64,000 nt of DNA. Source: an uncultured bacterium. GTDB lineage: Bacteria; Bipolaricaulota; Bipolaricaulia; RBG-16-55-9; DRJF01. Where the stretch lies: positions 2,239 through 66,238 of the forward strand of contig CAJXGD010000005.1 of assembly GCA_913053845.1 (NCBI GenBank), read 5' to 3'. The translations under genes and the position numbers were made by a program. Of the stretch, positions 12,083 to 52,533 are shown piece after piece. The notes below the pieces were generated by a model that was not told the origin of the DNA, did not search any database, and worked only from the letters and a program-made list of their open reading frames with translations. Numbering within the stretch: the first letter of the stretch is position 1; each line of letters opens with the position of its first letter.

Positions 12083-15000
12083 GCGGTCTCTTTCTCCGGG
12101 CCCTGGGCATTGATAAAGGCGTCGATGAAGGCGCTGACCTGCGCTTGATCATACTTATCCAGTTTGTCCAGGCGATCCCAAGCGGTCAGGGCCAGAGCTT
12201 TGTTCAGGCCAGGATAGGGTGCGAGCAGCAACTTGCAATATTTACGCTGCCCGCGCAGCCGCTGCACCAGTTGGGTCAACTGACTCAAGCTCTGCTTGGC
12301 GATATCGGGGCGATATTGCAACAGCACGCCCCCCTGTGCCAGATTATGCACCTGCAACTCAGGGGCCAGCGGCTGAGCACTGATCCCCCAAGGCGCCAGC
12401 TTCGGCGAATGACAACCGGAGGTCGGCGGCGAGGAGTTATAGACAGGCTTGCAGTCGGGCAGCAGCTTTTGACCCAGATCTGCCACCGGTTGACCCGGCT
12501 TGCCGTCCGGCGCCAGGGTGGCCGTCTTCTTCTTGCCGGAGAGCTGATCGGCCAACTTGGTGACCAGCTCAGGTTGATAGTCCGGATAGTCTTTTTGCAG
12601 TTGGTCCAGTTGCTTCTTGGCCTGTGCTTTATTGCCCTGTTTGGCGTATAAGTCGGCCAGCTGATAGAGGGCCTGTTGGCCATCGGGGCCAAACTTGTTC
12701 TTGAAACCGGCCCGCTGCTTGGCTGCATTCAGGATTTTCTCATCGATGGTGATCCGCACATTTGTCGGTGGCTTGAGCTGCAGCGCTGACTGGAAGTTGC
12801 TGATCGCTTTGTCCCAATCCAGCCGGCCGGCGTATACCTCCCCTAGCCCGCGATAGGCCTGGATAGAGTTGGGATTCTGCTGCAAGACGGCTTTGTACTG
12901 CGCCTCAGCTCCCTGGTAGACATGCTGCTTGAGATAGATGTCGGCCAGGGTCAGCCGCGTATCTTTGTCTTGCGGATCGAGAGTGATGATTCTCTTGGCC
13001 ACCTCAATGCGAGCCTCGTCGCTATAGCTGCGCTTGAGGGCATCACGGTACTGCTGCAGGGCATCTTTCTTCTTGCCTTGAGCTTGGTAGACCTCCCCCA
13101 GACCCACATAGGCCTGGGAAGCATAGGCGTCGCGGTTGATCACCTCTTGAAAAGTCTGCTGTGCCTGATCGGTCTGCTTGCCCGCCAGATAGGCCTGACC
13201 CAACTTGATCTGGACGCTCTCCCGCGCTCCGATCTTGAGAGCTTGGTGATACTGACCCTGAGCCGCTTGATAATCGCCCTGCTCCATCTTGAGATCACCC
13301 AGGTCGGTGAGCAGCTGCACCTCCAGCGTACTCTCCTTCTCCGAGGAGATAGCCTCTTTGAGCTTGAGCAGGATATCCTGGGCCGATTTGAGCGCATTCT
13401 GCCGGTCCGGCTCGGAGGCCGAGTCCAGCTTGGCCCAAGCCAGATAAGTCTCCCCTAATTTGAGCTGCACCTGCTTGGCCTGCTCCGGCTGCTTCTGATC
13501 CTGGACCAGTTTGAGCGCGGTGGCATAGTAGCCGATGGCCTGCCGATAATTGAACCGTTTGGCCTGCAGATCGCCCATGAGCAACTGAGCCTCGGTTAGA
13601 GTGGGGTCGAGATCAAGCGCCTGCTTCAGCTGGCCCAGGGCCTGGGTCTCCTTGCTTCGCTGCAAGAACCAGCGGGCATAGCGATAGCGCAGTTGAGCAT
13701 TCTTGGGAGAGGTGGCCAGCGCCGCCTCAAAGGCCGGTCCATCCGCCGAGCCGGCCGAGCGCAAGAAGCTTTCCGCTGCTTGACGGCGATCTAGGGCGAT
13801 CTGCTGCTCGATCGCCTTGAGTGCCGCGCTCTTTTTATCCGACTGTTTGGCCAGCTTGGCCTGTTTGTCCTGATCGAGCTTGAGCACCTGGGCGTAGAGC
13901 CGGCTGAGATAATAGCCCAGATAGGGGTCGGTACTGGGGCTATTCTGTTGGATTCTCTCGTAGGCTTGGATCGCCGGCTCCAGCGCGGCCCGCTTGGCGG
14001 TATCACCTTTGGCGCTGGTCGCTCGGGCCTCCAGCGCAAAGGCCCCCAACACCGGAGCGCCGACATAGTCGATCTTGGCCTGGCTCTTGAGCTGCTTGAA
14101 CCAGTCGGAGAAGCGTTGTTTGGTCTCGTCCTTGATATAGGCCTGGGTGACTTGCTTTTTAACTGTATCGCTCTCGCGTCGTCCGGTCAGCTCGATCAGG
14201 TGGAAGCCGAAGGAGCTGCGCACGATCGGGCTGACATCGCCCACTTTCTTCAGGGCAAAGGCCGCTTGGTCAAAGGCCGGATCCATCACCCCGTGGCCGA
14301 ACCAACCCAGGTCTCCGCCCTTGGCCTTGGTGGCCGGGGCGTCGTCGGATTTCTCCGTGGCCAATTGAGCAAAACCGGCTCCGGCTTGTAGCTGCTTTTG
14401 CAGGGCCTCGATCTTGCGGTAGGCCGTCTGGACCTGATCGGCAGGCGCGTCTTTGGCGACTTTGATTAAAATATGACTGGCCCGCACTTCGACCGTCTTG
14501 GGGAACACGCCGGCCTTCTGGGCCTGGCTCTGCCAGTGATCAAAGCGCTGATGCTCCAGTTCGTTGATATAATCGGTCTTGACCTGGCTCTTGACCGCAG
14601 CAAATTTCTTCTGGCGCCGATCGGTGACCTTGATCAGGCCGAAGCCTCGGGCGGTGCGGATGGGATCGCTGACTTGGCCCACCGGCAGCTTGAAGGCCAC
14701 CTTGGCGATCTGGGGGTCCATCTTATCCCGGCTCAGATAGCCCAGATCGCCACCGTTATTCTTAGAGAGATCTTGAGAATACTGCTTGGCCAGCTTGGCG
14801 AAGTCAGCTCCTTGGTCGAGCTGGGCTTTGATCCGGCCTATCTGCTCTGAGGCCGACTGCACCACGCTCTTAGGGGCGTCAGGCGCGACCTTGATCAGGA
14901 TATTGCTCAGGTTGACCTCTTCAGGAGCATACTTGTCCTGATGAGCCTTCAGATAAGTTTTTAATTCCTGATCGTCGGGCACCACCGGGGAGATGAGTTT

Positions 15001-42268: not shown

Positions 42269-43204
42269 GTGAGTGAGAATATGTTTAGCCCTGATATACT
42301 AATAGCAGAAAGATTCGATCCGAGTGAGCGCGTGGTGCTCCACCGGGGGAGTTGTCTGGAGCTATTGCGGGAGATACCAAGCAGGTCGATGCAATTAATC
42401 GTCACCTCGCCACCTTACAACATTGGCAAAGAGTACGAGCGAAAACTCAAAATAGAGACCTATCTTGAGCAACAGGCTCAAATAATCAGCGAGTGTGTGC
42501 GGGTGCTCTCCGATAGAGGGAGCATCTGCTGGCAGGTTGGCAACTATGTAAGCAATGGGACTATTATTCCGCTTGATACCGTCCTATATCCGATATTCGA
42601 CAGCTTGCACCTGGTGATGAGGAACAGGATTATCTGGCATTTTGAACATGGTCTTCATTGTTCTAAAAGGTTCTCCGGGCGCTATGAGACAATCAGTTGG
42701 TTCACTAGGAGAACTAAGGATTATGTTTTTAACCTCGATACTATTAGAGTACCACAGAAGTATCCGGCAAAGAAATACTTCAAAGGCCCAAAGGCAGGGC
42801 AGTATTCCTGCAATCCTCTGGGTAAGAATCCGGGTGATGTTTGGAACATACCGAACGTGAAAAACAATCACGTGGAAAAGACGGAACACCCCTGCCAATA
42901 CCCGGTAGAATTGATCGAACGACTGGTATTGGCAATGACCAATGAAGGTGATTGGGTCTTCGACCCGTTCCTGGGCACAGGGACCTCAATCATAGCTGCA
43001 ATGCTGCATAACCGGCGGGGTGCCGGTGCAGAAATAGAAGATAAATACGTTGATATAGCTAGAGATAGAATACGACGAGCCATTGACGGAACGTTAAGAA
43101 CCAGGCCTATGAATAGAGCCATATATGATCCCAAATTACCTGGTCAGGGACTGAAAGGCGATACCATTGCCGTGCCCCTGGTGATTGTCGGTATGGACAC
43201 CTAA
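42269..43204 (+). CDS. Beta-class DNA amino-methyltransferase (SPPY motif; N4-cytosine or N6-adenine), orphan, in a low-GC segment
   Basis: Motif IV LIVTSPPYNIGKEY precedes motif I DPFLGTGTS (beta-class order). The local GC is visibly lower than the flanks. No restriction endonuclease gene is adjacent. Confidence 0.8.
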   Translation: MSENMFSPDILIAERFDPSERVVLHRGSCLELLREIPSRSMQLIVTSPPYNIGKEYERKLKIETYLEQQAQIISECVRVLSDRGSICWQVGNYVSNGTIIPLDTVLYPIFDSLHLVMRNRIIWHFEHGLHCSKRFSGRYETISWFTRRTKDYVFNLDTIRVPQKYPAKKYFKGPKAGQYSCNPLGKNPGDVWNIPNVKNNHVEKTEHPCQYPVELIERLVLAMTNEGDWVFDPFLGTGTSIIAAMLHNRRGAGAEIEDKYVDIARDRIRRAIDGTLRTRPMNRAIYDPKLPGQGLKGDTIAVPLVIVGMDT

Positions 43205-43355: not shown

Positions 43356-43790
43356 TCAGGGACCGGCCAGCGTGACCAGCGCCAAGCCTAGCACGCCAAA
43401 ATCGCGGGCTACAATATCGCTCAGACCATGACCAACCAGCAGCATCAGGATGATCTCCAACATGACCCCCACGCTGAGCAGCGCAGCAGTGCGAGGCGCA
43501 ATGCCCAAGATCAAGGCTGTGGCCAGCATCCAGAGCAGTCCCCCATGCAATAGCACCAAGAACAAGGCAGCGCTCGACCCTGACGCCAGCAGCGGCACAT
43601 AGCCGGTCCACATATGCGGTTGCAGGAGCTCAGCAACTCCGAACCACAAGAAGATCAATCCCAAGGTGATCCGAACCGCCGTTGGGGTCCACGCCTCCAG
43701 CCAAGTTAGCCAGGACGCGGGGATCAGCGCAGGTTGTCCTCTCACTGCTTGTCGGTCAATTGCGGCAACTGTGGCGATAGCTTTGCTCAT
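43356..43790 (-). CDS. Small integral membrane protein (DoxX-like)
   Basis: 144 aa with four predicted TM helices. Confidence 0.4.
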   Translation of the reverse strand: MSKAIATVAAIDRQAVRGQPALIPASWLTWLEAWTPTAVRITLGLIFLWFGVAELLQPHMWTGYVPLLASGSSAALFLVLLHGGLLWMLATALILGIAPRTAALLSVGVMLEIILMLLVGHGLSDIVARDFGVLGLALVTLAGP

Positions 43791-44374
43791 GAGCCCCTCC
43801 TGGGTGGCAAGAGAATGCGACCAGCGGCGTTGGTGATGACCAGCCCATCGTCGCCGAAGTTGTCCTCCCCAGTGTAGCCCGAATCATCCCCGAAGCGGGC
43901 CTCGATGAAGTAGACCTTGCCGCTGGCAGCGAAGCTGCGTTGGTACGGAGGCCGTGAGCTACCCATCACGGAAATACTCAGGGTGACTTGCTGCTTTTGG
44001 CGCTTGAAACTGATCGTGAAGCCGGCCAAGGCACGCCGGGTTCTGTCGTTAAGTGAGCCGGGGTAGAGCTGATAAGCCGCTCGCGCGTAGGGCGTGCTGG
44101 AGAGCAGCGGACCCAGGCGTACAGCCTGAGCGGATTGAGGCGCAGCAGGAGTGCTCTTCGCTTTGGGCTGAGGCCGGGTGCCGGGCTGCGAATCGCCCGG
44201 TGCGCTCGCCGCGCTGGCCTGTGGCTGCGGGTCGGTCAAGCTGCTCTGTAGGCTCAAAGAATGGTTATTCAAGCCCCATAACCCCAGCGACAGGGCGATC
44301 AAAGCCGAAGCCCCCAACGCCACCAGCCCCCGCAGGCCAATTGTTTCTTTATTGTGATGAGTTTTCTTCATCAT
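43787..44374 (-). CDS. Hypothetical membrane-anchored/secreted protein
   Basis: 195 aa with an N-terminal hydrophobic segment and a Pro/Gln/Ala-rich linker. Confidence 0.35.
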   Translation of the reverse strand: MMKKTHHNKETIGLRGLVALGASALIALSLGLWGLNNHSLSLQSSLTDPQPQASAASAPGDSQPGTRPQPKAKSTPAAPQSAQAVRLGPLLSSTPYARAAYQLYPGSLNDRTRRALAGFTISFKRQKQQVTLSISVMGSSRPPYQRSFAASGKVYFIEARFGDDSGYTGEDNFGDDGLVITNAAGRILLPPRRGS

Positions 44375-44452: not shown

Positions 44453-45877
44453 TCAGTGTGACCGGGTCGCCGTCCGGTAAAGTGGCAAACGGACCGTGAA
44501 AATGGTCCCTTCGCCCGGTGTGCTCTCCACCTCAATCTGACCTTGATGCACCCGTACGATCTCACGGACGATCGCCAGCCCTAGGCCGGTGCCCCCGGTG
44601 CGCTGCTGGGAACGAGCCTGGTCGGCGCGGTAGAAACGCTCGAAGACATGTGACAGCTCTTCAGCCGGGATACCCAGCCCGGTGTCGGCCACGCTCAGCC
44701 GGGCTCGGTCGCCCTGGAGCTCCAGGCTCAGCCGCACCTGCCCCCCTGGCTGCGTATACTGGATCGCGTTGTCCAGCAGATTCGCGATCATGCGGCGCAA
44801 TAGCAGCGGATCGCCATAGACAACCGGTCTCTTGGCACAGGCGACCTCTAGCGTGATTTGCCGCTGCTCCGCCAAGGTTTTGATCTCGCCGGCGATCTCG
44901 GCGCAGAGCTGAGCCAGTTCGATCGGTTGAAAATCAGGCTGCCATTTGCCGGAGTCGGCGCGCGCCAAGAGCAGCAGCTCTTGAACCAAGCGAGAGAGCC
45001 GTTCGGCTTGCCCCAAGCTGGTCTCTAACACCTGACGGTACTCCTGGGCCGAGCGTCGCCGGCGCAGCGCCACCTCCAGTTGGCCACGCAGCACCGTCAG
45101 CGGGGTGCGCAGCTCGTGGGAGGCGTCGGAGACGAAGCGCTTCTGCTGCTCAAAAGCCCGCTGCAAACGCCCGAACATCCGATTGAACGTCCCGGCCAAT
45201 TGGCCGATCTCATCCTCTGGGTTGGCAACAGGCAGACGCTCGGAAAGACTGCGCTCACCGATGCTCTCCGCGGTCTGTGCCATGGTCTTGAGCGGTCGGA
45301 GCAGGCGGTCGGCCAGAAAGAAGCTTCCCAGACTGGAGAGCAACAGCAGAGTGGGCGCGATAATCAACAACCAAAAGCGGAGCCTTCCTAAGGTGCTCTC
45401 GACCCGTTTGAGGGAGATTCCCACCTGGACCAACAAGCCGGCTGAGGTGCCATCGCCGGTGTCCACCACTGTCAACAATCTTAGCGGTGGACCCTGGCCA
45501 ACCGAGACTGTCGCCAAGCTGCCGGCAGGACCGTCCTTCAGGGCTTGCGCACGGATTGTCGCGTTAAGCGGCAGGCGCTTTTTCCCCAGGTTGGCCGATC
45601 GTGCTAAGATGTTCCCTCCCAGGTCGCTAAGCTGAATCAAGAGATCCGCCGCGCTAAAGTCATTCTCTTCTTGAGGGAAATTCCATCGCCCTGCCTCGAA
45701 ATCAAGCCCGCTGTTGATCTCTGCGGCCTTGGAGAGCAAGGTCATGTCTACTCCCCGGTAGAGGCTGTCGGCCACGGTGGAGAAGAGGATAAGACTGAAG
45801 GCGGTGATGAGCAGAGCGGTTACCAGCAGATGCCAAGACATGATCCTGGCGCGAATCGATCTAAACATCAGGGACAT
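44453..45877 (-). CDS. Sensor histidine kinase (2 TM, HAMP, HisKA, HATPase_c)
   Basis: H-box SHELRTPL. N-box LLDNAIQYT. G boxes DTGLGI and GGTGLGLAIV. Confidence 0.85.
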   Translation of the reverse strand: MSLMFRSIRARIMSWHLLVTALLITAFSLILFSTVADSLYRGVDMTLLSKAAEINSGLDFEAGRWNFPQEENDFSAADLLIQLSDLGGNILARSANLGKKRLPLNATIRAQALKDGPAGSLATVSVGQGPPLRLLTVVDTGDGTSAGLLVQVGISLKRVESTLGRLRFWLLIIAPTLLLLSSLGSFFLADRLLRPLKTMAQTAESIGERSLSERLPVANPEDEIGQLAGTFNRMFGRLQRAFEQQKRFVSDASHELRTPLTVLRGQLEVALRRRRSAQEYRQVLETSLGQAERLSRLVQELLLLARADSGKWQPDFQPIELAQLCAEIAGEIKTLAEQRQITLEVACAKRPVVYGDPLLLRRMIANLLDNAIQYTQPGGQVRLSLELQGDRARLSVADTGLGIPAEELSHVFERFYRADQARSQQRTGGTGLGLAIVREIVRVHQGQIEVESTPGEGTIFTVRLPLYRTATRSH

Positions 45878-45878
45878 C
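45822..45878. repeat. 57-bp direct repeat, copy A (RR-stop/HK-start junction sequence, here at the gatD 3' end / HK start)
   Basis: accagcAgatgccaagacatgatcctggcgcgaatCgaTctaaacatcagggacatcc. It matches 48161-48217 at 54 of 57 positions. Confidence 0.8.
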
Positions 45879-46691
45879 CTTCATCGTATCACGACCGCCC
45901 CTCAATGGGCTTCCGTCTCTCTTCTTTATGAGGTGGGCTCCCAGGTACTTGGGGTGAGATTTAAGCGCCAGGCGCAACGCGGCATCATGCGCCTCTGTTT
46001 CCAAGCTGTCGTCCAGCGGGGCGAGCTCAGTGACACCATAGCGGCGATTTAGCGCCTTCTGGAGCAAGAAGTCCGCTAAGACAGGATTTTTCGGTAGCAG
46101 GGCCCCGTGGAGATAGGTGCCGATGGCATTACGATAGATGACACCTTCGGTGTGGTCACGGCCGTTGTTGCCACTACCCCGGCGTCGCACCCGACCAAGC
46201 GGTCGAGCACCCGGCTTGAGGTAGGTACAACCGTTGTGGTTTTCGAAGCCGACTAGCGTCCGGCGCGCGCCGAACAAGTCGGTCTCGACGATGATATTGC
46301 CGATGTAGCGTACGGGCTCCGCTATGGTCTCGACCGGCAAGATGTCGACACCAGGCAAACGGTCACCATCGTTCATCTGATAGTACTCGCCTAAGAGTTG
46401 ATAACCACCGCAGACGGCCAGGGTCGGCAGTCCATCCTCGATGGCCGCTCGTAGCGCAGGTCCCTTGGTTTTGATGAGGTCCTGAACCAGCATTCGTTGC
46501 TGTCTGTCCTGGCCTCCACCGAGGAAAATGATGTCCAAGAGGTCAGGATCGAACGGATCACCCCTGGAGAAAGTGCGCAGCTCCGTGATGATCCCCCGCC
46601 ATTCGGCACGGCGCTGCAAGGTGAGGACGTTGCCTCGGTCGCCGTAGATATCCATCCGGCTAGGAAAGAGCCAAGCGATGGTCAACTTCAC
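45861..46691 (-). CDS. gatD: Lipid II isoglutaminyl synthase, glutamine amidotransferase subunit
   Basis: CobB/CobQ-type GATase: IFLGGGQDRQQ…LAVCGGYQLLG…FENHNGCTY…YLHGALLPKN, closely resembling GatD. Its last residues KDVPDV and stop are encoded by repeat copy A. Confidence 0.8.
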   Translation of the reverse strand: MKLTIAWLFPSRMDIYGDRGNVLTLQRRAEWRGIITELRTFSRGDPFDPDLLDIIFLGGGQDRQQRMLVQDLIKTKGPALRAAIEDGLPTLAVCGGYQLLGEYYQMNDGDRLPGVDILPVETIAEPVRYIGNIIVETDLFGARRTLVGFENHNGCTYLKPGARPLGRVRRRGSGNNGRDHTEGVIYRNAIGTYLHGALLPKNPVLADFLLQKALNRRYGVTELAPLDDSLETEAHDAALRLALKSHPKYLGAHLIKKRDGSPLRGGRDTMKDVPDV

Positions 46692-48089
46692 TTAGCTCTC
46701 CTGCCAAAAAGCGGGCACGTGACCGCTGCGAGCCAGATGGTTGTGCAATGTCAGCAGCGCCGTGTAGGTCGGCAGTATGTAGAGTGAGCTGCCCGCTGGC
46801 AATTGGGCCATTGCGGCCTCCAATGCCGGCACAGGTTTCGGTATGATCGTCACGCGCACCTGATCGATGCCGGCATATTTGAGGCGCAAGGCCACCTCCA
46901 GGGCACGGGTGCCCGACGCGGTGATCGAGACGGCTCGGTCGGACAACAGCTCGAAGTCCACATCCCAGAGCCAAGAGATGTCGTGACCATCTGCATCGTT
47001 ATCATTGACCAGGATAAGCAGATGAGCCTCTTGAGCACTGGTGGCTCGGGTGATCAGCTGTATCACCTGGTTGAAGCTGGCGGGGTTCTTCACCAGGAAG
47101 AGATGCAGTTCATGGTCTCCCAGCAGGATGCGCTCGCCCCGTCCGAAGACGGCTCGGAATTCGCTCAAGGTCTCTGCCACAACCTGCGACGGGATGCCCA
47201 GCGAAAGGGCAGTAGCAGCAGCGGCTAGGGCGTTATAGACGTCGTAGAGACCGGGCAGCGGCAAATGGACCTTCAACTCAGCGGATGGAGAGCCGATGTG
47301 GACCTCGAAGCTTCCTTCCTGGCATGGGACCACCCGATCGGCGAAGACCTGTGGGGTGGGACGAGCCTCGCCGCACTGAGGACAGACATAGATGCCCAGA
47401 TGACTAAAGTAACGCTTCGTGTACTCAAAGGCGGTGCTGCAGCGCCGGCAATCGGTGGCATCTGCCGCATATAGCCCCGTCTCTCCGGCCAGGCAATGAT
47501 CTTCAATGCCATAGAAAAGGGGTGACTGGGCACAATCTCGGGCTAGGTTGGCCACCGTAGGATCGTCGGCGTTGAGGACGGCGCGACTGCCGACGGGCAG
47601 CGCTTGCAGTGCTTGAGCCACACGATCCGTGACTGCATCGAGCTCACCGTAGCGATCAAGCTGGTCGCGAAAGAAGTTGTGAACGATCAGCCGCCGGGGG
47701 CGCAACTGGGCAGAGACACTAGGGGTCCAGGCCTCATCAACCTCGATGATGGCGATGGTATTGCCGTGGCCTGCCAGCCGCGGTAGCTCTAGCAAGGCCG
47801 TGGTCACCCCGCTGGCCATGTTCGCACCCGCACCGTTGCTGACTACCTGCCAACCGATTCGCTGGCAGATGGCAGTTAGCATCCGCGTGGTCGTCGTCTT
47901 CCCGTTGGTGCCCGTGACTACGACCACGCCCTGGGAAGCAAGCGAGGCCAGTTTGCGCATGGCCTGGGGGTCCAGACGCGAGGTGACCGCACCGGGCATG
48001 ACGGTGCCGCCGCCTGTGCCCAGGACCTGCGAGAGCCAGCGGACCAGCCGCCCACTCCCTATCGCCAGTCGCAAGCGAAGATCAATCAT
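46692..48089 (-). CDS. murT: Lipid II isoglutaminyl synthase, Mur-ligase-like subunit
   Basis: GTNGKTTTT P-loop. Cys4 ribbon (CRRCSTAF…CPQCGE). DUF1727-type C-terminal domain (LVNDNDADGHDISWLWD). Confidence 0.85.
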   Translation of the reverse strand: MIDLRLRLAIGSGRLVRWLSQVLGTGGGTVMPGAVTSRLDPQAMRKLASLASQGVVVVTGTNGKTTTTRMLTAICQRIGWQVVSNGAGANMASGVTTALLELPRLAGHGNTIAIIEVDEAWTPSVSAQLRPRRLIVHNFFRDQLDRYGELDAVTDRVAQALQALPVGSRAVLNADDPTVANLARDCAQSPLFYGIEDHCLAGETGLYAADATDCRRCSTAFEYTKRYFSHLGIYVCPQCGEARPTPQVFADRVVPCQEGSFEVHIGSPSAELKVHLPLPGLYDVYNALAAAATALSLGIPSQVVAETLSEFRAVFGRGERILLGDHELHLFLVKNPASFNQVIQLITRATSAQEAHLLILVNDNDADGHDISWLWDVDFELLSDRAVSITASGTRALEVALRLKYAGIDQVRVTIIPKPVPALEAAMAQLPAGSSLYILPTYTALLTLHNHLARSGHVPAFWQES

Positions 48090-48216
48090 GAGATAAAGGA
48101 GGGAGGAGAGCCGGGTGCCGGGCTGGTCGTCGCTCGTCCGGAACCCGGAGCATCGCGGTCACCAGCGGATGCCAAGACATGATCCTGGCGCGAATTGACC
48201 TAAACATCAGGGACAT
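48082..48216 (-). pseudogene. Chimeric leader ORF: histidine-kinase 5' fragment (18 codons) read through into junk, ending across the murT start codon
   Basis: MSLMFRSIRARIMSWHPLV is 16/18 identical to the HK N-terminus. The ORF then continues …TAMLRVPDERRPARHPALLPPLSHD and stops at 48082, 7 nt past the murT ATG. Confidence 0.6.
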
Positions 48217-48217
48217 C
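48161..48217. repeat. 57-bp direct repeat, copy B (original junction at the RR 3' end, carrying an HK 5' fragment)
   Basis: accagcGgatgccaagacatgatcctggcgcgaatTgaCctaaacatcagggacatcc. It encodes the RR C-terminus …IPDVPDV* and, overlapping it, the HK start MSLMFRSIRARIMSWH. Confidence 0.8.
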
Positions 48218-48901
48218 CGGGATCGGGGGATCTTCATCTTGCAATACGTAGCCGACGCCTCGGATGGTGTGCAATAACTTGACTGACGCGCCCTTGTCGA
48301 TCTTTTGCCGCAAGCGGTAGATAAACACATCAATCAGATTGGAAAAGCTGTCGAAATCACCGGCCCAGACGTGCTCACTCAGCTCGGTTCGGGTAATGAC
48401 CCGGTGAGGGTGGCGCATGAAATACTCCAGTACCTCGTACTCCTTCCCGGTCAAGTTGATCTCCCTCCCGCTGCGGCGGACCCGGTGGGTGATCAAATCC
48501 AAGCTCAAGTTAGCTACCTGCAGCAAGCGAGGCTCAGGCTGCGCACCTCGACGCAGCAAGGCCCGCAGGCGCGCCAAGAGCTCTGCGAAGGCAAAGGGCT
48601 TGGTCAGGTAGTCATCGGCACCGTAATCCAAGCCGCGTACCTTGTCCTCTAAAGAGTCTTTGGCGGTCAGAAGCAATACGGGCGTGAGGCGCCCCGCTTG
48701 CCGCAGCTCGCCGAGCATGGTCAAGCCATCTTTCTTGGGCAGCAGGATGTCGAGGATGACCAGATCATACTCGTTCAGTTGAGTGAGAAAAAGCCCCTCC
48801 TCGCCATCGTAGGCGACGTCTACCGCATAATGCTCCTCCTGCAAACCTTGCCGGATGAAGCTGGCCAGCTCAGGCTCATCTTCGACGATCAGGATACGCA
48901 T
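48200..48901 (-). CDS. OmpR-family response regulator
   Basis: MRILIVEDEPEL…DLVILDILLPKKDG…TAKD. Winged-helix C-terminal domain. Confidence 0.85.
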   Translation of the reverse strand: MRILIVEDEPELASFIRQGLQEEHYAVDVAYDGEEGLFLTQLNEYDLVILDILLPKKDGLTMLGELRQAGRLTPVLLLTAKDSLEDKVRGLDYGADDYLTKPFAFAELLARLRALLRRGAQPEPRLLQVANLSLDLITHRVRRSGREINLTGKEYEVLEYFMRHPHRVITRTELSEHVWAGDFDSFSNLIDVFIYRLRQKIDKGASVKLLHTIRGVGYVLQDEDPPIPDVPDV

Positions 48902-48964
48902 AATTTTACCTATACTATGCAATACAATCTAGCCAATCTCAAAGCGACCAAGTATAGCACCCTG

Positions 48965-49456
48965 TTAGGCGCGTTTTTTGCGAAACTGATACTCGCGCCA
49001 AATGAAATACACAACAACGAAATCGAAAATGCTGAGTAACAGCAGGAAAAGAGAATGAGTGTGGGTGAAGCGGTAGAGCATGTAAGCAATGAAGATGCCA
49101 AGAAACCAGAGTGCGGTCGGATATGCCCACAGTCGGTCTCGCAACAAGCCTGCAACCAAAAAGACCTTGATAAGACCGTGCACGAGAAGATAAACGCTCG
49201 CGAAAAGCTGAGTGTCTGATGAAAGGCTTTGCACGGAGTGGCGCAACAAATTGGCAATCAAGTCATGGGGGTCTTCCGATAGCTCATGCGCCGTCAGAAA
49301 GAAAATGGTGGCATTGAGGACCCTAGGGCTCATAAAGAGGAGGAGCGAGCCACCGATGATCTCCAGTATGCCGTCCACGCCCTTAAACAAGACGATAATC
49401 TCAAACAGCCGGTGTGTAGTTTTCTCCTGTGTTGTCCTATTTAGGGGTTGAAACAT
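48965..49456 (-). CDS. DUF2127-type small membrane protein (low-GC segment)
   Basis: Start placed at the internal ATG 49456 (MFQPLNRTT…). Three to four TM helices. The region is clearly lower in GC than the flanks. Confidence 0.45.
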   Translation of the reverse strand: MFQPLNRTTQEKTTHRLFEIIVLFKGVDGILEIIGGSLLLFMSPRVLNATIFFLTAHELSEDPHDLIANLLRHSVQSLSSDTQLFASVYLLVHGLIKVFLVAGLLRDRLWAYPTALWFLGIFIAYMLYRFTHTHSLFLLLLSIFDFVVVYFIWREYQFRKKRA

Positions 49457-49503
49457 ACCTAACACCTGAATACCTGAGTTCAGCGGCGGGTGGTGCTGGC
49501 AGA

Positions 49504-49539
49504 GTGTACTTCGACAAAGAGCCAACTTGCAAACGCCAA
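49504..49539. repeat. 36-bp direct repeat, copy 1 (tgtacttcgacaaagagccaacttgcaaacgccaaa)
   Basis: Matches 50410-50445 at 34 of 36 positions. Confidence 0.7.
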
Positions 49540-49648
49540 ACCAACCAGAGCGCACGAGGGGAGGCCGCGGAGTCTCAAGTCGAGAATCCATCATGGCATC
49601 CCCTCGCGCATTGGCCATCGTTAGGTTAGCGAACGGCTCCTCGCCAGC

Positions 49649-49993
49649 TTAATCTTGCGGGCCGTCCTGTGGACCGTCCGGGCCATCCTTCTGCTGGGTG
49701 TTGTCGGTGTCTGTAGCCGAATCCGGAGCTTCAGTCTTGCTCTCCGATTCAGCCGCCGAATCCGGAGCCTCAGTCTTGCTCTTTGATTCAGTCGCCGACT
49801 CTGGAGCTTCGGTCTCGCTCGCCGCAGCCGTGGCATTGGTCACGTTGGCATTAGCCTGAACCGCTGCTGTCGTTTGCACAGGCGTAGTGCTGGCCGCGAA
49901 CATCTGATGAGAGGCGCTTAGAGCTAGGCCACCCACCAGGAGTAGCGCGGCCATGCCGAAGACCGCGATCAGTGTTCCTTTTCTCATGTTCAA
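49649..49993 (-). CDS. Small secreted acidic tandem-repeat protein
   Basis: Signal peptide MNMRKGTLIAVFGMAALLLVGGLALSA. Contains (SKTEAPDSA/ESA) repeats. Confidence 0.45.
   Translation of the reverse strand: MNMRKGTLIAVFGMAALLLVGGLALSASHQMFAASTTPVQTTAAVQANANVTNATAAASETEAPESATESKSKTEAPDSAAESESKTEAPDSATDTDNTQQKDGPDGPQDGPQD
49716..49830. repeat. About three tandem 36-39-bp DNA repeats inside the secreted-repeat-protein gene
   Basis: gccgaatccggagcttcagtcttgctctccgattca, followed by two imperfect copies. Confidence 0.6.
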
Positions 49994-50208
49994 CTCACCT
50001 CACTTTCGCTGCTAGTTGGGCAGCGAGCCCAGTATAGTAAATCGGAGATGAACCCACGGTGAATCGGAGATGAACATGCAGTCATGGCAATCCGCCATCA
50101 CCGTGGCCTGGCTCCAACTCCTCATGACAAGGCCTCCCGGCGGCGTTGTCCCAGTAAGTCCATTTTACTCAGTCGGCCAGACCTAGTAGTATACTGGCAG
50201 CGCGAGAT

Positions 50209-50401
50209 ATGGACCTACTCAGTTGGATCACCGCGGTCTTCGTCCAATACGGCTATTGGGTTATCTTTTTCGGCGTGATGCTGGAGAACGCTGGCATCCC
50301 TCTGCCGGGCGAGACGGTCCTACTGGCAGCGGCTTTCTTCGCCTGCCAGGGGCACTTCAATCTGGTTATCGTCATCGCTGTGGCTGCCGTAGGCGCAGTG
50401 T
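50209..50401 (+). pseudogene. Duplicated 5' fragment of the dedA gene (first 64 codons plus promoter region), truncated
   Basis: 50164-50401 is about 85-90 % identical to 51146-51382. It encodes MDLLSWITAVFVQYGYWVIFFGVMLENAGIPLPGET…AVGAV, then diverges into the 36-bp repeat copy 2. Confidence 0.6.
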
Positions 50402-50680
50402 TCGCAGACTGTACTTCGACAAAGAGCCCACTTGCAAACGCCAGATCAGTCTCGGCTGCAGCGCGGTCAAGTGCAGCGCCTGGTTAGACATGTAGCTCTG
50501 GTGAGCTTGACCCGACCCCCCGGCTCGAAAGCCGATGTTGAAGGTAAGAAATCCAGGAACGAGTGACAAGCCGATGCTCCTGAGCTCTGTTCGACAACAG
50601 AGGCCGACAATTCGAGCAAGGGGCGAGCCCATTGCTCGTGTGATTCGATTCACCAGACGAGAGTAGGTTTGTGCTTTCAT
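50372..50680 (-). CDS. Hypothetical 103-aa protein
   Basis: ATG 50680 preceded by an AGGAGGTG RBS: MKAQTYSRLVNRITRAMGSPLARIVGLCCRTELRSIGL… No recognised family. Confidence 0.3.
   Translation of the reverse strand: MKAQTYSRLVNRITRAMGSPLARIVGLCCRTELRSIGLSLVPGFLTFNIGFRAGGSGQAHQSYMSNQALHLTALQPRLIWRLQVGSLSKYSLRTLRLRQPQR
50410..50445. repeat. 36-bp direct repeat, copy 2
   Basis: tgtacttcgacaaagagcccacttgcaaacgccaga. Confidence 0.7.
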
Positions 50681-50831
50681 AGAAGCACCTCCTTTCTCGA
50701 TCCTAGGAATCGGGTCCGACTCGGGGGTCGAGTCCAGTTCACCAATGCAACTTTGCTCCACACTTTGCATGCGTAACGTTACCTTCAGCGGAGCAGGCGC
50801 GCAAGCGACTGCGTCCGTGGATAGAGGCACA

Positions 50832-50912
50832 ATGAACAAACGCCCCAAGAAGCTTCTCAACCGGGTCCGCGACCCGATCCGCCTCAAACACTACGTCGCG
50901 GCATCGACGTAA
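50832..50912 (+). pseudogene. 27-codon remnant resembling the N-terminus of an integron-type tyrosine recombinase
   Basis: MNKRPKKLLNRVRDPIRLKHYVAAST*. The block LLxRVRDxIRLKHY matches the conserved start LLDxVRDxIRxxHYSxRTE of IntI-like integrases. It is interrupted after HY. Confidence 0.35.
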
Positions 50913-51189
50913 AATCAAGCACTCAAGGCCTATAGAGGGCAAGCCGCTCTCCCAGGTGGCCCATCCGCCCCGCCCACTTGAGCCATATCCATAGGTTGTG
51001 TAACATCACCGCGATCCCCAGCAGTAGCAAGCGCAGCCCCACCCGCCGCTACGCAGTGCGTGCTCGTGCCTGTTCCTACACCCGGTGGTTGCTCTCGATC
51101 CCGAACCGCCTGCGGTACTTTCCCCCCAAGTGAGTGCAAGAAAGTTCTTTACTCAGTCAGCTAGCCCTGGTATACTGGCGGCGCGAGAT

Positions 51190-52497
51190 ATGGATCTACT
51201 CAGTTGGATCACTGCGGCCTTTGTCCAGTACGGCTATTGGGTCGTCTTCTTAGGTGTCATGCTGGAGAACGCCGGCATCCCCTTGCCGGGGGAGACGATC
51301 CTGCTGGCGGCGGCTTTCTTCGCCTACCAGGGGCACTTCAATCTGGTTATCGTCATCGCTGTGGCCGCCGTAGGCGCAGTGCTCGGTGACAACGCCGGCT
51401 ACTGGATCGGTCGCCGCGGCGGGAGATCGCTGCTCGAGCGCTACGGAGGTTATCTGCTCCTGAACGCGAAGCGACTAGCTGGCTTGGAGCGCTTTTTCGA
51501 GCGTTACGGCGCCAAGGCGGTCTTCTTCGCCCGCTTCGTCACTGGATTTCGCGTCTTTACCGCCCTCTTCGCCGGAGCCGGGCAGATGCCCTGGCCGAAG
51601 TTTGTGTTCTATAATGCCGCCGGTGCGCTCATCTGGAGCATTACCATGGGGTCCTTGGGCTATCTTTTCGGCTACAGCTGGGAGGCACTGGCCCATTGGC
51701 TGGGGCGTGGCAGCTTGGTCGCCGGGGCGGCGCTGCTGCTCATCTTTGCGCTTGTCTGGATTCGCCGTCGCCTGCCGGCCTGGCAACGTGCACTCGATGG
51801 CTGGCTGCCCCGCACCCTGGGCCTGCGCGAGCTGCTGATCAGCTTCGCCACTCTGCTCAGCTTGGGGCTCTTCTCCAAAGTAGCTCAGGACGTGGCAGCC
51901 AACGAGTCGCAGCGCTTCGACCTGACTATCTTACAGACCATCCACCGGGATCTGCCCGCTGGTTGGGAGTCGCTGATGAAGGCCATCACTGCTCTGGGGT
52001 CGTTTAAAAATCTCGGCGGACTTTTGATCATCATCCTGCTAGTCCTGCTCTGGCGGCGGCGCTGGAGGATCGCGCGATTTCTGGCCGTCACCGGTCTGCT
52101 CACCCCAGTTTTTATCGAGGGGCTCAAGCTGGCTTTCCATCGGGCTCGTCCCCATCTCTGGCCCGCACCATTCGAAGCTTCGTACAGCTTTCCCTCTGGC
52201 CACGCGCTGGGCTCGCTGGTCATCTACGGTGTGCTGGCCTATCTGGTCGACAAGACCTGGCCGCGCTGGCGGCCGGCCATCTGGAGCGTCTACCTGGTGC
52301 TGGTGTTGACGATCGGCTTCAGCCGACTATATCTGGGTGTGCACTGGCCTACCGACATCTTGGGTGGTTGGGCCGCCGGAGGACTGCTGCTCTTCGGGCT
52401 GATCTACTGGCGCGAGGGACGCTATCGCCTGCCGGCGCTGGTTTGGCTTGAGCTGCGCAAGTTGTGGAACCGAGTAGGGACGAATAGCCGTAGCTGA
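51190..52497 (+). CDS. DedA (VTT/SNARE-associated) domain fused to a PAP2 phosphatase domain
   Basis: Start placed at ATG 51190 (MDLLSWITAAFVQYGYW…), 36 codons into the longer ORF from 51085. N-terminal DedA segment (…DNAGYWIGRRGG…). C-terminal PAP2 motifs KLAFHRARP…SFPSGHA…SRLYLGVHWPTD. Confidence 0.8.
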   Translation: MDLLSWITAAFVQYGYWVVFLGVMLENAGIPLPGETILLAAAFFAYQGHFNLVIVIAVAAVGAVLGDNAGYWIGRRGGRSLLERYGGYLLLNAKRLAGLERFFERYGAKAVFFARFVTGFRVFTALFAGAGQMPWPKFVFYNAAGALIWSITMGSLGYLFGYSWEALAHWLGRGSLVAGAALLLIFALVWIRRRLPAWQRALDGWLPRTLGLRELLISFATLLSLGLFSKVAQDVAANESQRFDLTILQTIHRDLPAGWESLMKAITALGSFKNLGGLLIIILLVLLWRRRWRIARFLAVTGLLTPVFIEGLKLAFHRARPHLWPAPFEASYSFPSGHALGSLVIYGVLAYLVDKTWPRWRPAIWSVYLVLVLTIGFSRLYLGVHWPTDILGGWAAGGLLLFGLIYWREGRYRLPALVWLELRKLWNRVGTNSRS

Positions 52498-52533
52498 GCG
52501 TGCAGGCAGCCGGAGCCAGGCGTCACTAGCCGC

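What the first reader, a model, noticed from the sequence alone, without database searches (positions are those of the whole stretch)
48930..51190. Low-GC, repeat-rich accessory patch between the response regulator and dedA. It looks like a scar of a degenerate mobile or integron-like region.
Within 2.3 kb the patch holds: an AT-rich DUF2127 membrane protein gene; a small secreted tandem-repeat protein; a 103-aa RBS-driven unknown gene; two 36-bp direct repeats 906 bp apart; a truncated duplicate of the dedA promoter plus its first 64 codons; and a 27-codon ORF matching the start of integron-type tyrosine recombinases. Composition, repeats and fragments together point to past site-specific or illegitimate recombination rather than ordinary core genome.
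Basis: partly seen in the sequence, partly recalled or inferred. Interest (0 to 1): 0.6.

Follow-up and report, generated by a model that had tools for sequence, protein, structure and literature searches.

The report
Recombination scar hiding a conserved RNA
This 2.3-kb patch in a Candidatus Fraserbacteria genome is a real scar of mobile-DNA insertion and illegitimate recombination, not an integron; its "103-aa unknown gene" is really a ~250-nt folded RNA with a short reading frame that recurs in toxin-antitoxin and restriction islands of unrelated bacteria and matches no catalogued family.

Summary
The "scar of mobile DNA" reading holds. The "integron-like" part does not.

New evidence for the scar:
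- a decayed ISH3 transposase C-terminus at 50926-51156(-), E 9e-12, with two in-frame stops
- a recombinase start, 71% identical over 21 residues to the start of an annotated integron integrase, cut off where that IS remnant begins
- a dedA duplicate that ends in a 12-bp overlap with repeat copy 2

The layout is A-x-B-A'-y-B'. Segments x and y are unrelated, and A/A' and B/B' are 88-91% identical. This fits insertion-duplication of DNA from a diverged relative better than a tandem duplication or an integron. No canonical attC pair was found. The repeat does not form a shared hairpin and is not dispersed.

Main surprise: the "103-aa gene" overlies a sharply bounded ~250-nt element at 50497-50747(-).
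- It is found in 8 unrelated contexts, next to TA and R-M genes.
- 92.6% of predicted pairs are kept, and 17 pairs change on both sides.
- G-U pairs outnumber A-C mismatches 112 to 18.
- It carries an invariant ribosome-binding site and AUG, with codon periodicity in the frame.
- It has no hit in Rfam, Pfam or NCBIfam.
- Its function is unknown.

The parts
48965..49456 (-). DUF2127 membrane-protein gene (163 aa), low GC (0.47-0.51). Probably cargo of the inserted DNA.
   Evidence: Pfam PF09900, E 1.8e-32. Composition. The protein is identical in two other assemblies.
49493..49543 (.). Repeat D3 copy 1 ('A'). It lies 36 nt upstream of the DUF2127 start on the minus strand.
49550..49610 (-). Stable hairpin just downstream of the 112-aa gene. 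It resembles a terminator but has no U-run.
   Evidence: the 150-nt stretch containing it folds with z -2.2 (plus strand) and -1.7 (minus strand).
49649..49987 (-). 112-aa ORF: hydrophobic N-terminal segment followed by acidic 13-residue repeats (39-bp x 2.8 at 49716-49824). This is segment 'x'.
   Evidence: No family hit. Identical in L082.
50164..50409 (+). dedA' ('B'): a truncated copy of the dedA promoter and first 67 codons. A 3-nt insertion widens the promoter spacer to 20 nt.
   Evidence: Differences from dedA by codon position are 4/3/16; 15 codon changes are synonymous and 7 are not.
50398..50448 (.). Repeat D3 copy 2 ('A''). Positions 50398-50409 are the joint where dedA' homology ends and D3 homology begins (12-bp overlap, GTGYTSGSWGAS in all three partners).
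50497..50747 (-). Conserved ~250-nt structured element. It has a 22-bp closing helix that pairs its 5' and 3' ends. An inner hairpin pairs the GAAAGGAGG ribosome-binding site with a downstream CUCUCUCG. AUG is at 50680, followed by about 62 conserved codons.
   Evidence: Alignment A5 of 8 copies with sharp boundaries. MFE -108 kcal/mol, z -5.8. 83 pairs, 92.6% of cells paired against 36-50% when slid, 17 pairs changed on both sides, 0/500 shuffles. G-U 112 against A-C 18. Codon-phase differences 0.236/0.156/0.342. No Rfam hit at E<=10.
50372..50680 (-). The '103-aa gene' as called. The first ~62 codons belong to the element; the last ~40 are unconserved read-through into D3 and the antisense of dedA'.
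50832..50912 (+). N-terminal 21 residues of an integron-integrase-like tyrosine recombinase, then 5 unrelated codons and a stop. It diverges from the structured element and starts 85 nt from it.
   Evidence: tblastn against plasmids. The match is residue 1 to residue 1 of an annotated 'integron integrase' CDS.
50926..51156 (-). Decayed C-terminal ~70 codons of an ISH3-family transposase, with two in-frame stops. The 5' three-quarters of the gene are deleted, and the break abuts the dedA -35 box.
   Evidence: NCBIfam NF033541, positions 250-298 of 298, E 9.2e-12. Frames.
51148..52497 (+). Intact dedA-PAP2 gene ('B'' plus the rest of the gene), with promoter TTTACT-17-TGnTATACT at 51148-51176 and ATG at 51190.
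   Evidence: Pfam VTT_dom and PAP2. Promoter scan.

Best explanation
The patch is the decayed remnant of horizontally acquired DNA upstream of dedA. It was assembled in several steps.

(a) A mobile segment carrying a tyrosine recombinase gene, a ~250-nt structured leader/mini-ORF element and probably DUF2127 as cargo sat next to dedA in one lineage ('H2': DUF2127-A'-element-int-dedA).
(b) An ISH3-family IS inserted into the recombinase gene after codon 21.
(c) A deletion removed most of the IS and stopped exactly at the dedA -35 box, so dedA stayed expressed.
(d) DNA of this version and of a version about 11% diverged ('H1': DUF2127-A-112aa gene-dedA) were joined. The most likely route is that a fragment closed into a circle by an illegitimate joint between dedA codon 67 and the left edge of A'. 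The circle then integrated by a single homologous crossover (insertion-duplication).

The result is A-x-B|A'-y-B': a truncated dedA' on one side and a complete dedA on the other.

Shown here: the parts, the joint, the IS and recombinase fragments, and the absence of attC sites. Inferred: the order of events and the two-lineage origin.

The scar as a whole has no function. The structured element inside it is an independent conserved unit. It is an RNA on the minus strand whose 5' and 3' ends pair. Its ribosome-binding site is sequestered, and its short ORF is probably translated. It sits 67-165 nt upstream of same-strand TA or defence cargo genes in other genomes. My best guess is that it is a cis-acting leader or mini-gene that controls or accompanies such cargo modules (inference, roughly 40%).
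For: Parts and repeats.

Scar:
- ISH3 remnant.
- Recombinase N-terminus.
- The B/A' joint overlaps by 12 bp.
- x and y share no similarity (blastn/tblastx).
- B differs from B' mostly at third codon positions (4/3/16; 15 synonymous, 7 not).
- B homology starts at the -35 hexamer.
- The same arrangement with different SNPs is in an independent assembly covering the whole patch (L082). A third assembly breaks inside it.
- Relatives at 59-68% identity lack the patch.
- D3 occurs only at this locus in the metagenome scan.
- A second event of the same shape lies 1 kb away. There murT-gatD sit between the response regulator and its kinase, flanked by a 71-bp repeat that duplicates the first 23 kinase codons.

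Element.
Against: - No H1-only or H2-only haplotype was found, so the two-lineage history is a reconstruction.
- With 23 differences, the third-position excess in dedA' cannot exclude a mix of in-situ decay and selection.
- A crossover in 51-245 bp at about 89% identity would be inefficient.
- The recombinase fragment is too short for a significant E-value (0.02-0.2).
- None of the other seven element copies has a recombinase in the DNA available, so the adjacency here may be coincidence.
- For the element, AlphaFold gives no confident fold for the peptide (pLDDT 57).
- No stop codon is conserved in the element's ORF.
- The window copy has more A-C mismatches than the others (6 against 0-3) and may itself be decaying.
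Confidence: 0.6

Rival explanations
1. Degenerate integron. On this view the recombinase fragment is intI, the minus-strand ORFs are cassettes and the 36-51-bp repeats are attC sites.
For: The recombinase start best matches an annotated integron integrase. The minus-strand ORFs diverge from it as cassettes diverge from intI. The element's relatives sit in co-directional TA arrays that look like cassette arrays.
Against: No RYYYAAC...GTTRRRY pair with >=5/7 complementarity at 47-167 nt was found on either strand of 48900-51200, nor in the L095 array. The two D3 copies do not share a hairpin, and copy 2 folds no better than shuffles (z 0.1-0.3). The left edge of D3 coincides with the end of dedA' homology, which fits a recombination joint. 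The supposed 'cassette 2' would carry an antisense dedA promoter and 5' end. The IntI-specific insertion cannot be checked in a 21-residue fragment.
Confidence: 0.08
2. In-situ tandem duplication of an ancestral [A-z-B] unit. The copies then diverged by 11% and one inner segment was replaced.
For: The A..B A'..B' order and the similar spacings (905 and 981 bp) are what a tandem duplication gives. The joint with microhomology fits.
Against: x (620 bp) and y (699 bp) have no detectable similarity, while their flanks keep 88-91%. A non-functional 245-bp fragment would have to survive long enough to reach 11% divergence, yet the three sampled populations differ by only 0.4%. The differences are biased toward third codon positions.
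Confidence: 0.15
3. D3 copies are attL/attR of a site-specific integration of the 905-bp segment (112-aa gene plus dedA').
For: Direct repeats of about 50 bp flanking a segment, with a recombinase remnant nearby.
Against: The flanked segment has no recombinase of its own, and it contains a fragment of the neighbouring chromosomal gene, which an integrating element would not carry. The copies are only 88-91% identical over the full 46-51 bp (the 34-nt core has one mismatch), and one edge coincides with the end of dedA' homology. D3 is found nowhere else.
Confidence: 0.07
4. Assembly artefact: two co-existing strain haplotypes were concatenated by the assembler.
For: One MAG assembly (DRJF01) breaks at 49743 and restarts at 50817, inside the patch.
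Against: Two assemblies with different SNPs (the window and VAOU01010073.1) span the whole patch colinearly. Strain variation normally fragments assemblies and does not produce ordered tandem joins.
Confidence: 0.04
5. The conserved ~250-nt element is only a MITE (a DNA-level element with 22-bp terminal inverted repeats), or only an ordinary small protein gene. On this view no RNA structure is under selection.
For: Boundaries are sharp and the ends are inverted repeats. Flanks are unrelated, and a single island holds several full and partial copies. A ribosome-binding site, an AUG and codon periodicity are present.
Against: Pairing is kept throughout the interior, not only at the ends, with 17 doubly changed pairs. 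G-U outnumbers A-C by 112 to 18, and the sense strand folds 15-30 kcal/mol better in 5 of the 6 copies compared, which shows selection on one strand. The 5' untranslated 60 nt are more conserved than the coding part. No target-site duplication is evident. There is no confident protein fold.
Confidence: 0.2

Closest known systems
Insertion-duplication (Campbell-type integration of a circle carrying a 5' gene fragment) and homology-facilitated illegitimate recombination
   Same: One truncated promoter-plus-5' copy and one complete copy of the target gene flank the inserted DNA. One junction is homologous and the other is a microhomology joint. The donor and recipient copies are diverged.
   Different: This is known mainly from laboratory suicide vectors and from transformation experiments. 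Here it is inferred from a natural genome, and neither the donor nor the recipient haplotype is in hand.
Integron platform (intI, attI/Pc, attC cassettes)
   Same: The recombinase start is 71% identical over 21 residues to an annotated IntI. Small unrelated ORFs are transcribed divergently from it. The element's relatives lie in TA-rich co-directional arrays.
   Different: No attC sites, no recognisable attI, and the recombinase is a 21-residue stump. The repeats are explained by the duplication joint.
ISH3-family (IS4-related) insertion sequences
   Same: The last ~50 residues of the transposase profile, including the YRRRFGIE region, match at E 9e-12.
   Different: Only about a quarter of the gene remains. 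It has two in-frame stops, and no inverted repeats or target duplication could be identified.
Type I toxin mRNAs with 5'-3' long-distance pairing (hok, aapA1)
   Same: For the structured element: a compact RNA whose two ends pair in a long helix, a Shine-Dalgarno sequence sequestered by a downstream anti-SD, a short ORF, and a location among toxin-antitoxin genes.
   Different: The peptide is basic and has no clear transmembrane helix. No stop codon is conserved and no antisense RNA was identified. Sequence conservation runs across phyla, which is unlike any known type I family. This comparison rests on my knowledge of those systems and was not tested here.
MITEs such as Correia/ERIC-type imperfect palindromes
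   Same: About 250 bp, terminal inverted repeats, sharp boundaries, and insertion between genes of operons.
   Different: The structure is strand-specific with many G-U pairs, the ribosome-binding site and AUG are conserved, and there is cross-phylum conservation with only one full copy per locus.

Membership tests
Integron | Integron integrase (tyrosine recombinase with the IntI-specific additional domain) | tested here: inconclusive
   Only residues 1-21 survive. They are 71% identical to the N-terminus of annotated IntI WP_224346711.1, but E is 0.02-0.2. The IntI-specific domain lies far downstream and is deleted.
Integron | attC sites (R''/L''...L'/R' imperfect palindromes, RYYYAAC...GTTRRRY) bounding the cassettes | tested here: not met
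   A regex-plus-folding scan of both strands of 48900-51200 found no pair with >=5/7 complementarity. The D3 copies share no hairpin. A dedicated tool (IntegronFinder/HattCI) was not available.
Integron | attI site and Pc promoter next to intI | not testable with these tools
   attI sites are not conserved in sequence. The 85 nt between the recombinase start and the element carry no GTTRRRY.
ISH3-family insertion sequence | DDE transposase matching the ISH3 profile | tested here: met
   NF033541, profile positions 250-298 of 298, E 9.2e-12, for the C-terminal fragment only. The score of 44.7 bits is far below the 225-bit whole-protein cut-off because three-quarters of the gene is missing.
ISH3-family insertion sequence | Terminal inverted repeats and target-site duplication | tested here: not met
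   No inverted partner was found in the window. The element is truncated at about 51147-51156.
Dispersed repeat / MITE (for D3) | Many copies per genome | tested here: not met
   Two copies in the window. The exact 23-nt pattern scan of metagenome contigs returns only the same locus.
Any Rfam family (for the structured element) | Covariance-model match | tested here: not met
   No hit at E<=10 on the element alone. No hit on the element at E<=1 in the window patch or in the five related loci scanned: L089, L090, L091, L092 and L094. ARAGORN finds no tRNA or tmRNA there.
Type I toxin-antitoxin | Small hydrophobic toxin ORF with its own stop, plus an antisense RNA antitoxin | tested here: inconclusive
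   An ORF with a sequestered SD and 5'-3' pairing is present. Against membership: no conserved stop, no clear transmembrane segment, and a low-confidence fold. An antisense RNA cannot be tested with these tools.
Protein families (for the element's ORF) | Pfam, NCBIfam or PHROG match | tested here: not met
   No family at E<=10. None of the 53 relatives has a precomputed Pfam domain.

The most novel reading that the evidence does not exclude
The ~250-nt element (window 50497-50747, minus strand) represents an undescribed class of structured and probably translated RNA that travels between phyla with toxin-antitoxin, restriction-modification and other defence cargo. Its closing helix and sequestered ribosome-binding site would act as a switch or a processing signal for the cargo genes downstream. 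Its position 85 nt from an integron-integrase-like gene hints that tyrosine recombinases may move such modules without attC sites.
Probability: 0.3. Interest if true: 0.75.

Novelty: new variant of a known kind. Interest (0 to 1): 0.5.

Why it matters
The scar itself is ordinary. It does give a clean natural example of insertion-duplication with DNA from a diverged relative in an uncultured phylum, and a second event of the same shape lies next door. That says something about how these genomes take up DNA.

The more useful result is that an ORF annotated as a hypothetical protein in 53 database clusters is better described as a conserved folded RNA with a mini-ORF. It sits at the head of toxin-antitoxin and restriction modules in Nitrospiria, Fraserbacteria, groundwater bacteria and other lineages. 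If it regulates or mobilises those modules, it would be a new handle on how defence islands are organised.

Tried and rejected
- **Close relatives.** A genome-collection scan with DedA-PAP2 found only relatives at <=46% identity, so no close species. Relatives at 59-68% from the protein search have different neighbours. The presence/absence test was therefore impossible.
- **attC hypothesis.** Both D3 copies were folded on both strands and share no hairpin. A regex scan was negative.
- **tRNA/tmRNA integration-site idea for the element.** Its ends look tRNA-like by eye. ARAGORN and Rfam are negative, and the ends pair fully with no 3' overhang.
- **RNase P, SRP and 6S.** Considered from memory and dropped, because Rfam gave no hit and the motifs do not match.
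- **DRT2/retron-like 'endless ORF' idea.** No reverse transcriptase is next to any copy.
- **Phage or plasmid origin of the element.** No match in IMG/VR (exact 20-mer), in PLSDB or in INPHARED.
- **Apparent DUF4160 presence/absence polymorphism next to the element in L096 and L099.** This was only a gene-calling difference.
- **Recombinase fragment.** Pfam, NCBIfam, PHROGs and PDB gave nothing.
- **Peptide structure.** pLDDT 57, so no fold search was run.
- **Literature.** String searches for the conserved sequence blocks found nothing.


Full report
**Source and neighbours.** The DedA-PAP2 protein of the window is identical to one named 'MAG TPA ... [Candidatus Fraserbacteria bacterium]'. 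On the minus strand the gene order is DUF2127, an OmpR-type response regulator, murT, gatD and a HAMP-HisKA kinase. On the plus strand, to the right of the patch, lie dedA-PAP2 and a dynamin-like GTPase.

**Check of the observation.** Every listed item is real.
- DUF2127 (48965-49456, minus) scores E 1.8e-32 and has GC 0.47-0.51, against about 0.61 elsewhere.
- The 112-aa ORF (49649-49987, minus) has a hydrophobic N-terminus and a 39-bp x 2.8 repeat.
- The direct repeat D3 is 46-51 bp long at 88-91% identity, with a 34-nt core that has one mismatch and a spacing of 905 bp. No shuffle produced a match.
- The dedA duplicate (50164-50409 against 51148-51390) is 88-89% identical. It begins exactly at the -35 hexamer TTTACT and covers 67 codons.
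- Residues 1-21 of the 26-codon ORF at 50832-50912 align to residues 1-21 of an annotated integron integrase on a Kovacikia plasmid: MNKRPKKLLNRVRDPIRLKHY against MQPPPKKLLDQVRDAIRLKHY, 71% identity. The piece is too short for significance (E 0.02-0.2).

Translating 50926-51156 on the minus strand gives ...YRRRFGIESNHRV*EQARARTA*RRVGLRLLLLGIAVMLHNLWIWLKW.... This matches the last 49 positions of the ISH3 transposase profile at E 9.2e-12.
- Similarity to the recombinase stops at codon 21, about 30 nt before the transposase stop codon. The likely cause is an IS insertion that cut the recombinase gene.
- The IS is itself truncated. Its remnant abuts the dedA -35 box, so a deletion removed the rest and stopped where dedA expression would have been lost.

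**Architecture.** On the plus strand the patch reads A (D3) - x (112-aa gene) - B (dedA') | A' (D3) - y (element, int', tnp') - B' (dedA).
- B homology ends at 50409 and A' homology begins at 50398. The 12 shared bases resemble all three partners.
- x and y have no similarity by blastn or tblastx. A plain tandem duplication therefore does not fit.
- Differences between dedA' and dedA fall 4/3/16 by codon position, with 15 synonymous and 7 non-synonymous codon changes. This suggests that most of the divergence arose while both copies were parts of working genes, in two lineages.
- The pattern of a truncated 5' copy, then an insert, then a complete copy is what integration of a circle carrying a gene's 5' fragment produces. 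The B|A' joint would be where the circle closed. I take this as the most likely history (about 55%).
- D3 would then be simply the conserved stretch upstream of DUF2127 that both versions shared. On that reading its left edge was set by the joint and its right edge by the start of the variable region.

**Independent support.**
- VAOU01010073.1 spans the whole patch colinearly at 99.66% identity with its own SNPs. The DRJF01 MAG carries both flanks and breaks inside the patch.
- D3 occurs nowhere else in the window or in the metagenome scan.
- DedA-PAP2 relatives at 59-68% identity have other neighbours and none of the patch genes.
- A second event of the same shape lies 1 kb to the left. A 71-bp repeat (48148-48218 and 45809-45879, 91.5% identical) duplicates the end of the response-regulator gene and the first 23 codons of the kinase (MSLMFRSIRARIMSWH...). 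The murT-gatD pair sits between the two copies.

**Integron test.**
- D3 and its flanks do not fold into a shared hairpin. Copy 2 is no more stable than shuffles.
- A scan for RYYYAAC...GTTRRRY pairs at 47-167 nt with complementary cores found none on either strand.
- Rfam finds nothing in 48000-52500.
- The integron reading therefore rests only on the 21-residue recombinase start.

**The '103-aa gene'.** A full HMMER search of 1.84 billion representatives found 25 proteins with E up to 0.001. One of these is the query's own cluster and two are large repeat proteins. The other 22 are short ORFs, 63-161 aa long.
- Their similarity covers only residues 5-68 of the query. It also continues upstream of the start codon (GGLDSTPESNPIP).
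- DNA alignment shows a sharply bounded unit of about 250 nt with unrelated flanks. Blocks such as CTGGACTCGACCCCCGAGTCGAACCCGAT are identical in nearly every copy.
- I collected eight distinct copies: the window, L089, L090, L091, L092, L094, L095 (a Nitrospiria MAG) and L096 (groundwater; the same locus in ten samples).

**Structure of the element.**
- The RNA folds at -105 to -115 kcal/mol (z -5.8 and -5.5).
- The consensus has 83 pairs. A 22-bp helix joins the two ends. A long hairpin pairs the invariant GAAAGGAG with a downstream CUCUCUCG. There are two further arms.
- On the alignment, 92.6% of cells pair, against 36-50% when partners are slid. Seventeen pairs change on both sides, against 4-11 when slid and 0 of 500 shuffles.
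- G-U cells outnumber A-C cells by 112 to 18. The sense strand folds 15-30 kcal/mol better than the antisense in five of the six copies compared. The structure is therefore selected on the strand that is the window's minus strand, which points to RNA.

**Reading frame of the element.**
- The AUG is invariant, 7-8 nt after the ribosome-binding site.
- Indels are multiples of three.
- Pairwise differences by codon phase are 0.236/0.156/0.342. The pattern holds in paired and in unpaired columns alike. The roughly 62-codon frame is therefore probably translated.
- No stop codon is conserved, and the tails beyond the element vary from 0 to about 40 codons.
- AlphaFold gives no confident fold (pLDDT 57).
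- There is no hit in Rfam, Pfam, NCBIfam or PHROGs, no ARAGORN call, no match in plasmid or phage collections, and no literature string match.
- A profile search finds 53 members, all unnamed.

**Context of the element.**
- In L095 it lies between a type I R-M operon plus Ymh and a co-directional run of MNT/HepT, HicB, ParE, DUF433/DUF5615 and HicA/B genes. Two partial copies lie inside that run.
- In L096 it lies between PemK, NotI and a D12 methylase on one side and DUF4160/DUF2442 on the other.
- In L089 it lies between an MNT-like/DUF5678 pair and an MqsA-like gene. In L090 it precedes a weak DUF3800 match.
- The next same-strand gene starts 67-165 nt after the element.
- In the window, if the [dedA' + 112-aa gene + D3] insert is removed, DUF2127 lies about 140 nt downstream of the element. 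That fits the H2 reconstruction.
- None of the other copies has a recombinase in the DNA available, so the 85-nt adjacency to int' here may be chance.
- The window copy has the most A-C mismatches (6 against 0-3) and may be decaying.

**Verdict.**
- As a scar the patch is ordinary. Its embedded RNA/mini-ORF family appears undescribed and deserves a proper covariance-model survey.

Noticed in passing
window 45809-45879 and 48148-48218 (with murT 46692-48089 and gatD 45861-46691 between them): A 71-bp direct repeat (91.5% identical) duplicates the 3' end of the response-regulator gene and the first 23 codons of the histidine kinase. murT-gatD sit between the two copies. As a result the regulator and its kinase are split, GatD ends in the regulator's ...DVPDV, and a 23-codon kinase stump follows the regulator. 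The shape is the same as the dedA'/dedA event.
   Followed up: partly
window 42269-43204: An N6/N4 DNA methylase gene (PF01555, E 1e-53) with a low-GC core (0.47 at 42601-43200). It is followed by two minus-strand ORFs with no family hit (43356-43790 and 43787-44374). This may be another acquired restriction-modification patch.
   Followed up: no
L095 11037-11230 / 12200-12393 and 11187, 11899, 12350: In the Nitrospiria TA array, a 194-nt repeat (93% identical) covers the end of a HicB-like gene. A motif TTATTTTCTCAACACC recurs about 14 nt after three stop codons. It does not meet attC geometry in my scan, and its nature is unknown.
   Followed up: partly
L095 12080-12165 and 13203-13285: Two partial copies of the structured element lie inside one TA array. 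One is internally deleted (the sequence after the AUG is joined to the 3' end). The other keeps only the 5' 80 nt. Each precedes another TA pair.
   Followed up: partly
window 50564-50595: Five of the 16 SNPs between the window and VAOU01010073.1 cluster in 32 nt of the structured element. They change three residues of the ORF (C29Y, G36S, L37I).
   Followed up: no
window 50164-50195 against 51148-51176: The duplicated dedA promoter carries a 3-nt insertion that widens the -35/-10 spacer from 17 to 20 nt. The truncated copy is therefore probably poorly transcribed.
   Followed up: no
L084/L085 10001-13440: In the closest other lineage (DedA-PAP2 at 67% identity), dedA-PAP2 is convergent with a HAMP kinase and response-regulator pair and sits next to an MMPL transporter. 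A dedA and two-component link may therefore be older than the rearrangements seen in the window.
   Followed up: no
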